Source: an uncultured Alistipes sp.
GTDB lineage: Bacteria > Bacteroidota > Bacteroidia > Bacteroidales > Rikenellaceae
Length of the DNA stretch: 51,347 bases
Direction of reading: 5' to 3'
Assembly (NCBI GenBank): GCA_949296635.1
Contig: CASFQF010000001.1
Span: forward strand, 1 to 51,347
A program made the translations under genes and the position numbers. The notes under the pieces were generated by a model that searched no databases, had not been told where the DNA came from, and was given only the letters and a program-made list of their open reading frames with translations. Positions 34,138 to 35,959 of this stretch are shown here, one piece after another. Each line of letters begins with the position of its first letter. The stretch's first letter is position 1.

Positions 34138-34176
34138 AAAAGAGCCGTTCCCAGAATGGGTGCGGCTCCTTTTTTT
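34138..34176 (+). terminator. Intrinsic terminator after the SLT gene
   Basis: GAGCCGTTCCCA-GAA-TGGGTGCGGCTC imperfect stem followed by C and T7. Confidence 0.8.
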
Positions 34177-34315
34177 GTTGATTTATTTCTGCAATGTTCG
34201 ATAGATTATAGAACTTGCATGGCGTTGGATAAATAGCTGAGACCGAATGATTATGAAACGATGTGCCGTGTGCTAAATTTTAACACTTTAAAATAGTACG
34301 GATTCAATTTATTAC

Positions 34316-34323
34316 TATATTTG
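34316..34323 (+). promoter_or_regulatory. -7 promoter element (TATATTTG) of the islet operon
   Basis: Exact TAnnTTTG, ~360 nt upstream of the first gene, which implies a long 5' leader. Confidence 0.7.
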
Positions 34324-34382
34324 TAACAAACAGCATAAAAGCAAGGTATGTAAAGAAGGAGAATAAGGACATAAATATATAA

Positions 34383-34556
34383 GCGTTAGCTTTTTTCGTG
34401 CCTTTTGAAACTTGGTCGTTTTATGTAGCACATGAATGAAGTTGACGCCTGCGTTGCTGCTTTCTGCAGTACACGTGGGCTTCATTCAATTATTTGTGCT
34501 ACGGGTAGACCAAGACCTCAAAAGGCAAGTAAGAGAATACGAGCCCGCGTTTTTTA
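34383..34556 (+). ncRNA. Candidate cis-regulatory leader RNA with alternative terminator/antiterminator folds
   Basis: Four nested perfect helices (10, 7, 8 and 9 bp) between 34399 and 34527. A competing hairpin at 34473-34550 is followed by a U tract. Confidence 0.7.
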
Positions 34557-34683
34557 TTGTACTACCCCAAATACAGCAACGCCATGAAAACGATCTATCA
34601 AAACAAATCTCCGTAAAGAGGAGCGGCTATTTACTGAACGCATACCTAATGCTAACATTATAAACAATATAACGATTATAAAT

Positions 34684-35298
34684 ATGTCAGAAGAATTAAA
34701 AAAATGCGCAGTTTGTGGAATGAAAATTCCTGTTGATGCGCAAATGTGTCCTTATTGCAGATCAATACAACCACAACAAGAAAAGAGGTCATTATCGGGG
34801 TGTTTAAACATAATCGGAGGCATTGTCCTAATTTTGGTCATATTGGCAGCCATTGGCAGTATATGTTCATCCCCTGAATCCGATGAAACGCCGTCAGTGC
34901 AGCAACCTACTGAAACAGAGGTAGAACTACAACAGCCGTCAACGACAAAACCTACAACTTCTGCAACGCAACTGCCTGAATCTTCAAGTCATAGTGCGAA
35001 TAGTCCAAGTGGGCAAAACACACCCTCTGCACCAAGCAGCGGCTCGGCCGCTACCGAGGTGAATACTGGAACGAACGACGAAATAATCCCACAAGAAAGA
35101 GATGGCAACAGTAGTGCAGCGTCAACATCCGGAGGGGCTTTGGATCATGGAGAACAGGCGCTTGAACAGCAAAGGGCTAAAGATAGAGCTGATAGACAAG
35201 CCAAGAGACAGGAACGGAAACAGGAGCGTCAAGCGAAAAAGAACAATAAACAGGCCGAACAGGATAAAAAGGAGAAACAAACTTTAATGGTATTGTAA
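34684..35298 (+). CDS. Zinc-ribbon, single-TM hypothetical protein with Ser/Thr/Pro-rich linker and charged tail
   Basis: CAVCG...CPYCR, hydrophobic IIGGIVLILVILAAIG, low-complexity S/T/P region and K/Q/R/E-rich C-terminus. Confidence 0.8.
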   Translation: MSEELKKCAVCGMKIPVDAQMCPYCRSIQPQQEKRSLSGCLNIIGGIVLILVILAAIGSICSSPESDETPSVQQPTETEVELQQPSTTKPTTSATQLPESSSHSANSPSGQNTPSAPSSGSAATEVNTGTNDEIIPQERDGNSSAASTSGGALDHGEQALEQQRAKDRADRQAKRQERKQERQAKKNNKQAEQDKKEKQTLMVL

Positions 35299-35925: not shown

Positions 35926-35959
35926 AAATAGCCGTTCCGCAGGGAGGAACGGCTATTTT
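35926..35959 (+). terminator. Intrinsic terminator closing the islet operon
   Basis: 13-bp perfect stem AAATAGCCGTTCC/GGAACGGCTATTT. Confidence 0.8.

What the first reader, a model, noticed from the sequence alone, without database searches (positions are those of the whole stretch)
34383..34556. Bistable RNA leader (terminator vs antiterminator) gating a foreign nuclease operon
Seen: between a consensus promoter (TATATTTG, 34316-34323) and the first islet gene (34684) lies a segment with two mutually exclusive folds. Fold A is a long rod: TGCCTTTTGA 34399-34408 / TCAAAAGGCA 34518-34527; CTTGGTC 34411-34417 / GACCAAG 34508-34514; GTAGCACA 34425-34432 / TGTGCTAC 34495-34502; TGAATGAAG 34433-34441 / CTTCATTCA 34480-34488; plus an apical hairpin at 34447-34479. 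Fold B has two hairpins. The first pairs GCGTTAGC 34383-34390 / GTTGACGC 34441-34448 and TTCGTG/CATGAA. The second pairs ACGTGGGCTT 34473-34482 / GAGCCCGCGT 34541-34550 (inner ATTC/GAAT and TTATTTG/CAAGTAA) and runs straight into a U tract (34550-34555). Fold A sequesters the 5' strand of the fold-B terminator. Inference: a transcription attenuator that keeps the operon off until a signal (protein, phage product, antisense RNA or ligand) flips it. It matches no riboswitch or T-box consensus I recognise. The only upstream ORF is a start-stop ATGTAA (34348-34353). I have an unverified recollection of similar leaders ahead of unrelated accessory genes in Bacteroidales.
Basis: partly seen in the sequence, partly recalled or inferred. 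Interest (0 to 1): 0.85.

Follow-up and report, generated by a model that had tools for sequence, protein, structure and literature searches.

The report
Kissing-hairpin transcription switch of Bacteroidota
This stretch is one copy of a widespread roughly 180-base leader sequence of Bacteroidota bacteria that matches no Rfam family; its RNA is predicted to fold either as two hairpins with matching tips ending in a stop signal or as one long rod, so it likely decides whether the surface-protein or defence genes behind it are transcribed.

Summary
The element is real. All helices are at the stated coordinates, folding z = -5.95, and Rfam has no hit. It belongs to a multicopy family: 178 non-redundant copies, found in 64 of 151 Bacteroidales genomes. 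Compensatory changes support both folds.

This loop-loop kiss likely starts the conversion to the read-through rod, in a race with termination. A 1-5-codon mini-ORF often follows the promoter (77 of 92 first ATGs).

Cargo is mostly exported proteins (99 of 147 vs 44 of 220). Here gene 2 matches PADLOC candidate PDC-S57.

The default state and input are unknown, and no transcript data were obtained. The scan noted similar Bacteroidales two-state or kissing leaders on other DNA (e.g. e1-7018322, e1-2978093); I could not confirm they are this family.

The parts
34316..34323 (+). Bacteroidota-type -7 promoter box (TAnnTTTG; consensus recalled, not from a call)
   Evidence: Sequence; same box 22-170 nt upstream of 92 of 110 copies vs 5 of 110 control windows
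34348..34353 (+). Start-stop mini-ORF; in homologues mostly GCCT-ATG plus 1-4 more codons and a stop
   Evidence: In-frame stop within codons 2-6 in 49 of 50 YTATG starts vs 11 and 15 in the other frames; stops TAA 30, TAG 17, TGA 2; 77 of 92 first ATGs give 5 codons or fewer, 40 of 132 promoter-bearing copies have no ATG
34382..34401 (+). Segment 1 (anti-antiterminator 5' strand); pairs with segment 2 in fold B
   Evidence: col 20-99: GC 72, GU 32, AU 8; CG 13, UA 4; 1:2 pairing in the partial-transcript fold of 173 of 178 copies
34406..34423 (+). Cap hairpin 1 of fold B; loop 34412-34417 (TTGGTC) is kissing loop 1 and the 5' strand of rod helix P2
   Evidence: fold of 34368-34450; predicted in 137 of 163 copies
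34399..34527 (+). Fold A rod (P1 34399-34408/34518-34527, P2 34411-34417/34508-34514, P3 34425-34432/34495-34502, 2:3 helix and apical hairpin); predicted read-through state
   Evidence: 497 cells with two-sided change vs 130 in shuffles; rod is the minimum-energy fold at the decision point in 172 of 178 copies
34432..34454 (+). Segment 2; pairs with segment 1 (fold B) or segment 3 (fold A)
34473..34497 (+). Segment 3; 5' strand of the terminator (fold B) or partner of segment 2 (fold A)
   Evidence: Alignment column 133 covaries with column 107 (fold A) and column 223 (fold B)
34503..34518 (+). Cap hairpin 2 of fold B; loop 34507-34514 (AGACCAAG) is kissing loop 2 and the 3' strand of rod helix P2
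   Evidence: predicted in 162 of 163 copies; inner pair 34506:34515 is UA 15, CG 7, AU 1, UG 1 in 24 of 24 rows of alignment A2, 23 of them divergent copies
34526..34558 (+). Segment 4 and U tract; 3' strand of the predicted intrinsic terminator (stem 34473-34482/34541-34550)
   Evidence: 3:4 hairpin in 158 of 178 isolated 3' halves; 5 or more U in the next 9 nt in 143 of 178; native beats nearest-neighbour chimeras 107 to 60
34684..35298 (+). Gene 1, 204 aa: N-terminal CxxC zinc ribbon, one hydrophobic segment, low-complexity tail
   Evidence: Weak Pfam zinc-ribbon hits below cut-off; homologue behind the same leader subtype in L105, 48% identity over 58 aa
35301..35897 (+). Gene 2, 198 aa: T5orf172 domain protein (GIY-YIG-like nuclease fold, recalled), candidate anti-phage gene
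   Evidence: Pfam PF10544 E 1.3e-19; PADLOC PDC-S57 E 3.5e-58; nuclease activity not tested
35926..35959 (+). Hairpin plus short T run closing the two-gene islet (likely operon terminator)
   Evidence: Read from the sequence; not called by the scan

Best explanation
It is a conserved, multicopy leader whose two covarying folds likely act as a transcription attenuator, in which a predicted loop-loop kiss would trigger the switch from a terminator fold to a read-through rod. Shown: the sequence family, its position between a promoter box and a same-strand gene, compensatory changes in both folds, and complementary, variable cap loops. Predicted by folding: as the RNA is made, segment 1 pairs with segment 2 first and displays loop 1; later cap hairpin 2 displays loop 2, about 25 nt before polymerase reaches the U tract. 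Inferred: if the loops kiss in that interval, pairing spreads through P2, P1 and P3, segment 2 captures segment 3, the rod forms and transcription continues. If they do not, segment 4 displaces segment 2 from segment 3 (the two are near-copies) and transcription stops near 34555. The outcome is most likely a folding race, set per copy by the kiss and stem sequences and shifted by whatever changes polymerase dwell time or blocks or helps the kiss. Of an attenuator I am about 85% sure, of the kiss as the deciding step about 65%; the input is not identified.
For: Fold A: 95.3% of cells paired, 497 two-sided changes vs 130 +/- 14 in shuffles, on a sequence-only alignment of 115 copies. Fold B: 50 two-sided changes vs 21 +/- 6. 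Fold-B pairs on an alignment of 24 copies (23 divergent) fitted only to fold A: 22 vs 6.4 +/- 2.0. One column serves both folds. Cap hairpin 2 keeps its inner pair through three two-sided types, a pair the rod does not contain. Both caps predicted in 136 of 163 copies; loops unpaired with probability 0.81 and 0.85; at least 7 contiguous complementary pairs in 157 of 163. Hairpin 1:2 is the best fold of the partial transcript in 173 of 178 copies. In the window it stays best to about 34498, and leaving it without pseudoknots costs 15-31 kcal/mol. The plus strand folds better in 168 of 178. Same-strand ORF within 420 nt in 147 of 178; none in 6; too little DNA in 25. Tandem copies, the second without its own promoter box, in L378.
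Against: No transcript end, probing or reporter data. P2 is also simply a rod helix, so its covariation does not by itself show a kiss. Covariation of 1:2 is weak once relatedness is allowed for: native beats nearest-neighbour chimeras only 94 to 72. Cap hairpin 1 is weak on its own (0 to -2.6 kcal/mol) and only 77% paired in A2. Fold B lies a median 17 kcal/mol above the rod. The terminator has a large loop, and 35 of 178 copies have fewer than 5 U after the stem (some may be mis-parsed). Related sequences inflate shuffle comparisons, and segment 1 of most A1 rows was fixed by the search pattern.
Confidence: 0.6

Rival explanations
1. RNA-addressed attenuator: released leader RNA, or a processed half of it, binds in trans through the matching loop to a nascent leader and sets termination or read-through, as P4 CI RNA or Gifsy-1 IsrK do. 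The loop codes keep paralogues from cross-talking.
For: Among 10 paralogues in genome G212 the paired P1-P3 strands are only 0.49-0.58 identical, while the unpaired spacer is 0.81 and the switch segments 0.85-0.96. About 12 loop codes among 16 copies by eye; the three copies in the window's own genome have three different codes. Precedent in PMC4825925 (passages).
Against: Four pairs of G212 paralogues share a loop code. A released full-length RNA should collapse into the rod and hide its loops unless cut. Fast stem change could also come from template-switch mutation in quasi-palindromes (recalled) or from gene conversion of the flanks. No antisense promoter enrichment (9, 13 and 13 of 124).
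Confidence: 0.2
2. Ribosome-controlled attenuator: a ribosome on the mini-ORF senses translation state and decides the fold.
For: The mini-ORF is conserved as a short frame with free codons and varied stops; 60 of 69 first ATGs give 5 codons or fewer vs 34% (maximum 55%) in 500 shuffles. Short-uORF attenuators exist (PMC5314783, PMC5418344; passages).
Against: 40 of 132 promoter-bearing copies have no ATG. The ATG lies mostly 31-92 nt before segment 1 with no kept frame (27/26/24), so it does not overlap the switch. Its region does not pair with segment 1 more than shuffles (mean z 0.09).
Confidence: 0.1
3. Riboswitch or dedicated RNA-binding protein stabilises the kiss or the rod, as guanidine does for the two-hairpin guanidine-IV riboswitch.
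For: Same overall logic of two hairpins joined loop to loop with a 3' terminator (PMC9788692, passages). Short motifs next to P2 are nearly invariant (GAAA in 59 of 70 unconditioned copies).
Against: Those motifs are explained as cap-hairpin stems and do change in pairs in divergent copies. The loops themselves vary freely (35 codes), unlike the conserved guanidine-IV loops. Downstream genes share no pathway.
Confidence: 0.12
4. Not a gate: the stable rod is a stand-alone small RNA or a DNA-level element, and fold B is a by-product of internal repeats.
For: The rod is much more stable and carries most of the covariation. Segments 1/3 and 2/4 are near-copies, which makes some alternative pairing automatic.
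Against: Fold-B-only pairs covary (3:4 chimeras 107 to 60), whereas the 1:4 extension of the rod does not (85 to 82). Consistent same-strand gene a median 70 nt downstream, tandem copies, and G-U-rich one-strand folding.
Confidence: 0.07

Closest known systems
Four-strand transcription attenuators (1:2 anti-antiterminator, 2:3 antiterminator, 3:4 terminator; PMC5314783, passages read)
   Same: Same strand logic, U tract after the 3:4 stem, position in the leader.
   Different: No sensing leader peptide over strand 1, no aptamer, T-box or known protein site. Strand 2:3 is part of a 130-nt rod, and both closed-state hairpins carry complementary cap loops.
Guanidine-IV riboswitch and Gd4v motif (PMC9788692, passages read)
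   Same: Two hairpins joined by a loop-loop pseudoknot, the 3' one a terminator; ON-switch logic.
   Different: There the loops are highly conserved and form a ligand pocket. Here the loops are variable and covary, the RNA is longer with a full rod alternative, and Rfam gave no match.
Phage P4 CI/seqA/seqC and Gifsy-1 IsrK leaders (PMC4825925, passages read)
   Same: A leader with two alternative structures and internal complementary segments, able in principle to act on itself in trans.
   Different: No Rfam match; mainly chromosomal and multicopy (4 real viral contigs in two scans); cargo is mostly exported proteins; trans action not tested here.
ops/opsX NusG-paralogue recruitment sites (PMC11685472, passages read)
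   Same: The commonest segment 1 reads GCGTTAGC, one base from E. coli ops GCGGTAGC as given in that paper.
   Different: Only 25 of 78 copies found without fixing segment 1 keep GCGnnAGC; the window's genome (84% complete) shows one NusG only.
FopS paralogous sRNAs of Bacteroides thetaiotaomicron (PMC11697453, section 8 read)
   Same: Multicopy RNA family of Bacteroidales with a terminator.
   Different: FopS is a single-stranded 5' stretch plus terminator acting in trans on translation; none of four core motifs of this element occurs in its six readable supplements.
DUF805b motif (Rfam RF02914)
   Same: Sub-threshold matches lie just downstream of the leader in 4 of 40 loci scanned.
   Different: 35 nt, outside the switch, below the gathering score; absent at the window's copy.

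Membership tests
Transcription attenuator (terminator/antiterminator leader) | Mutually exclusive 1:2 + 3:4 and 2:3 folds conserved by compensatory change | tested here: met
   1:2 support is the weakest (94 to 72 against nearest neighbours)
Transcription attenuator (terminator/antiterminator leader) | GC-rich stem followed by a U tract, between a promoter and a same-strand gene | tested here: met
Transcription attenuator (terminator/antiterminator leader) | Conditional premature 3' end in vivo | not testable with these tools
   No RNA holder listed; contigs cannot show ends
Ribosome-mediated attenuator | uORF overlapping the anti-antiterminator, with sensing codons | tested here: not met
   Mini-ORF mostly 31-92 nt upstream, free codons, absent in 40 of 132
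Riboswitch (guanidine-IV type or any Rfam class) | Match to an Rfam aptamer model | tested here: not met
   (window plus 40 loci, 39 distinct)
Riboswitch (guanidine-IV type or any Rfam class) | Conserved loop nucleotides forming a ligand pocket | tested here: not met
   35 different loop codes in 163 copies
Riboswitch (guanidine-IV type or any Rfam class) | Ligand-dependent structure change | not testable with these tools
   Needs probing
P4 CI / IsrK-type self-acting leader | Processed or terminated leader RNA acts in trans on the nascent leader | not testable with these tools
   Only indirect: paralogue-specific stems
Plasmid-type antisense attenuator (recalled: pT181, pIP501) | Opposite-strand promoter making a countertranscript | tested here: not met
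   Reverse -7 box in 9 and 13 of 124 vs 13 of 124 control
ops/opsX | Fixed GCG..AGC non-template hairpin | tested here: not met
   25 of 78
ops/opsX | Cognate NusG paralogue | tested here: inconclusive
   One NusG hit in an 84% complete genome; other genomes not searched
FopS | Single-stranded 5' seed plus terminator only | tested here: not met

The most novel reading that the evidence does not exclude
A new class of riboregulator: a phylum-wide, multicopy, protein- and ligand-free switch addressed by a 7-base loop code, in which each copy's own released leader RNA feeds back on its transcription. This would give gene-by-gene dosage control, delayed expression after horizontal transfer or ON/OFF heterogeneity of surface and defence genes in Bacteroidota.
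Probability: 0.22. Interest if true: 0.92.

Novelty: new variant of a known kind. Interest (0 to 1): 0.74.

Why it matters
Bacteroidota dominate many gut communities, and few leader-based regulators are described for them (my own knowledge, not from a call). This family occurs in 64 of 151 sampled Bacteroidales genomes, up to the 17 scored per genome. It sits in front of variable surface, secreted and some defence genes, so it may be a general control layer for acquired genes. Its design is unusually testable, because one loop change and its compensating change predict loss and rescue. Cultured hosts carry it: Alistipes putredinis DSM 17216, Alistipes muris DSM 112343 and Capnocytophaga sputigena NCTC11653. 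A portable, code-addressed attenuator would also be a useful expression tool for Bacteroidota.

Tried and rejected
Rfam: nothing over the element.

ops-like site: looked invariant only because my first pattern fixed it; 25 of 78 in the 3'-anchored metagenome set.

Ligand pocket in the rod's internal loops: better explained as cap stems.

Pairing of the mini-ORF region with segment 1: mean z 0.09, 6 of 77 below -1.5. Read-through frame from the mini-ORF: none kept. Selected 1:4 pairing: 85 to 82 and 83 to 84. Antisense promoter: no enrichment.

Phage origin: 2 of 28 and 4 of 10 viral pattern hits real, 4 contigs in all. Flanking inverted repeat 34161-34227 / 34577-34627: 29 of 1000 shuffles score as well, not family-wide (mean z 0.19 in 137).

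Expression: no RNA holder listed; laying two runs of contigs was uninformative. In one search the 'loopGAAA' identity figure came from a wrong position and is not used.

Literature: ten searches found no description of this family. No Bacteroidota terms in the main text of PMC8632094 or PMC11109978. The supplement of PMC5737381 could not be read, and the cluster tables of preprint 10.64898/2026.10.21.760802 were not seen; either, or Bacteroides sRNA catalogues I did not read, may hold part of it.

Full report
Observation. The helices, promoter box, start-stop and U tract are at the stated coordinates. The stretch 34330-34570 folds at -79.9 kcal/mol with z = -5.95, and the rod is its best fold. 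The two fold-B hairpins are the best folds of the separate halves (-25.2 and -30.7); enforced together they give -65.2 against -74.8 for the rod. Other ATG frames exist in the leader, so ATGTAA is not the only upstream ORF. Rfam gives no hit over the element in the window or in 40 homologous loci, 39 of them distinct.

Setting. The leader heads a two-gene, low-GC islet behind the slt gene. Gene 1 is a zinc-ribbon membrane protein and gene 2 a T5orf172 protein matching PADLOC candidate PDC-S57. None of 29 relatives' slt loci shows the leader or either gene within the up to 1.5 kb fetched. The own genome holds a second full copy (C123) and a divergent third (C95). The host looks like an Alistipes relative, judged from the named records with the closest copies; this is inference.

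Family. BLAST hit 47 of 201 relatives. Of the 29 non-self loci fetched, 26 held a full copy, 1 a truncated copy and 2 none. A 5'-anchored pattern gave 120 genome loci, 90 real, with about 650 stretches estimated in all. A 3'-anchored pattern gave 119 metagenome loci, 99 real, about 2300 estimated. Of 240 profile hits, 218 could be parsed and 178 are non-redundant. A covariance model matched 64 of 151 genomes of the order, up to the 17 scored per genome; the weaker matches I inspected share the architecture (23 divergent copies). Named hosts include Bacteroidales and Flavobacteriales. Viral contigs rarely carry it.

Both folds. Alignment A1 is sequence-only and holds 115 of 118 non-redundant copies; I left out three with long insertions. 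On it fold A has 95.3% of cells paired and 497 two-sided changes against 130 in shuffles. Fold B has 50 against 21. Column 133 covaries with its fold-A partner (107) and its terminator partner (223). On 24 copies aligned to a fold-A model (the window and 23 divergent ones), fold-B pairs show 22 two-sided changes against 6.4. Native strands beat random chimeras for 1:2 (137 to 30) and 3:4 (131 to 36). Against the three nearest neighbours 3:4 holds (107 to 60) but 1:2 is weak (94 to 72), and 1:4 shows nothing. These counts are inflated by relatedness, and segment 1 was fixed by the pattern in most A1 rows.

The kiss. The nearly invariant bases beside rod helix P2 first looked like a binding pocket. 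In the separate halves they form the stems of two small cap hairpins, predicted in 137 and 162 of 163 copies, both in 136. Their loops are the two P2 strands, unpaired with probability 0.81 and 0.85, complementary over at least 7 bp in 157 of 163 copies, with 35 codes. In the window they are 34412-34417 and 34508-34513. The inner pair of cap 2 is kept as UA 15, CG 7, AU 1 and UG 1 in all 24 rows of A2; the rod lacks this pair. Cap 1 is weaker. The kiss itself is inferred: no tool here folds pseudoknots.

Order of folding. Hairpin 1:2 is the best fold of the partial transcript in 173 of 178 copies, the terminator the best fold of the 3' half in 158, and the rod the best fold of the whole in 172, by a median 17 kcal/mol. 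In the window 1:2 stays best to about 34498, and pseudoknot-free paths out of it cost 15-31 kcal/mol. Fold B is therefore a predicted kinetic trap, and the kiss offers a way out about 25 nt before the U tract. How fast that route is cannot be computed here, so the default state is open.

Flanks and cargo. A -7 promoter box lies upstream in 92 of 110 copies against 5 of 110 controls. A mini-ORF follows in many: 49 of 50 YTATG starts stop in frame within codons 2-6, against 11 and 15 in other frames. It is absent in 40 of 132, does not overlap the switch and does not pair with it, so I treat it as an accessory. Segment 4 often has a downstream complement (73 of 174 with z below -2), which could lock read-through. 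A same-strand ORF follows in 147 of 178 copies, and 99 of 147 begin with a signal-peptide-like sequence by my simple rule, against 44 of 220 other ORFs. Of 86 first proteins scanned (86 of 96 picks of 60 aa or more), 31 had Pfam hits and 3 were nuclease or restriction-modification families. Tandem leaders occur (L378; L404). Among 10 paralogues of genome G212 the paired P1-P3 strands are 0.49-0.58 identical, the unpaired spacer 0.81 and the switch segments 0.85-0.96. This is the main hint that the codes matter in trans.

Mechanism. Best reading (0.6): a transcription attenuator decided by a race between the loop-loop kiss (rod, read-through) and segment 4 (terminator). Shown: family, position, both folds, complementary loops. 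Predicted: folding order and trap. Inferred: termination, the kiss as trigger, any input. Rivals are trans-acting leader RNA (0.2), ligand or protein (0.12), ribosome on the mini-ORF (0.1) and no gating (0.07).

Comparison. It works like a four-strand attenuator (PMC5314783, passages) and shares a loop-loop plus terminator design with guanidine-IV riboswitches (PMC9788692, passages), but fails their membership features. P4 CI and IsrK (PMC4825925, passages) are the precedent for trans action. The ops likeness (PMC11685472, passages) failed on unbiased copies. FopS differs (PMC11697453, outline, section 8 and supplement search). PMC5418344 was seen as passages, the 2026 preprint as passages, PMC8632094 and PMC11109978 as term searches with no hits, and PMC5737381 as a listing only. 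Ten literature searches found no description. Unseen supplements and unread Bacteroides sRNA catalogues may hold part of it.

Earlier scan notes. A sequence look-up found nothing. Word look-ups found several two-state Bacteroidales leaders on other DNA and, after I had noted the kiss, kissing or barcoded ones. They are unchecked notes and not independent support; whether they are the same family I could not test.

Verdict. Real, uncatalogued in the sources searched, well supported as a two-fold leader, untested as a regulator. New variant of a known kind; interest 0.74.

Noticed in passing
G000:C123:3705-3893 (L031) and G000:C95:7181-7400 (L437): Two more copies in the window's own genome with different loop codes: one before an 874-aa lipoprotein, and a divergent one that appears to lack segment 1.
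   Followed up: partly
L378:2991-3384; L404:424-1142; L098:1773-2146: Tandem leaders; in L378 two copies about 50 nt apart with no promoter box before the second; the second L098 match is weak.
   Followed up: partly
L379:2434-3345; L380:1526-2609: Divergent pairs of leaders pointing away from each other.
   Followed up: no
L010:1616-1650; L011:1403-1436; L133:2195-2226; L117:2202-2239: Sub-threshold DUF805b (RF02914) matches just downstream of the leader, where the complement of segment 4 often lies.
   Followed up: no
L382-L396, L344 (genome G212): At least 16 paralogues, most with a purine-rich spacer carrying repeated GGAG instead of a mini-ORF; the window's spacer 34355-34367 is also purine-rich.
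   Followed up: partly
window 34161-34227 and 34577-34627: Patchy inverted similarity flanking promoter and leader; borderline against shuffles (29 of 1000) and not family-wide.
   Followed up: yes
window 34451-34459 and 34574-34582: Perfect 9-nt complement between the apical hairpin and a stretch just past the terminator.
   Followed up: no
window 34269-34300: AT-rich imperfect palindrome just upstream of the promoter box, possibly an operator; seen by eye.
   Followed up: no
L002:1719-3197; L003:1704-3179; L105:1118-1933: The leader subtype closest to the window's heads radical SAM/SPASM genes in two relatives and two zinc-ribbon genes in another, so cargo is swapped behind one leader type.
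   Followed up: partly
L005, L006, L104, L122: Several leader-headed islets lie next to rRNA or tRNA genes, typical insertion sites.
   Followed up: no
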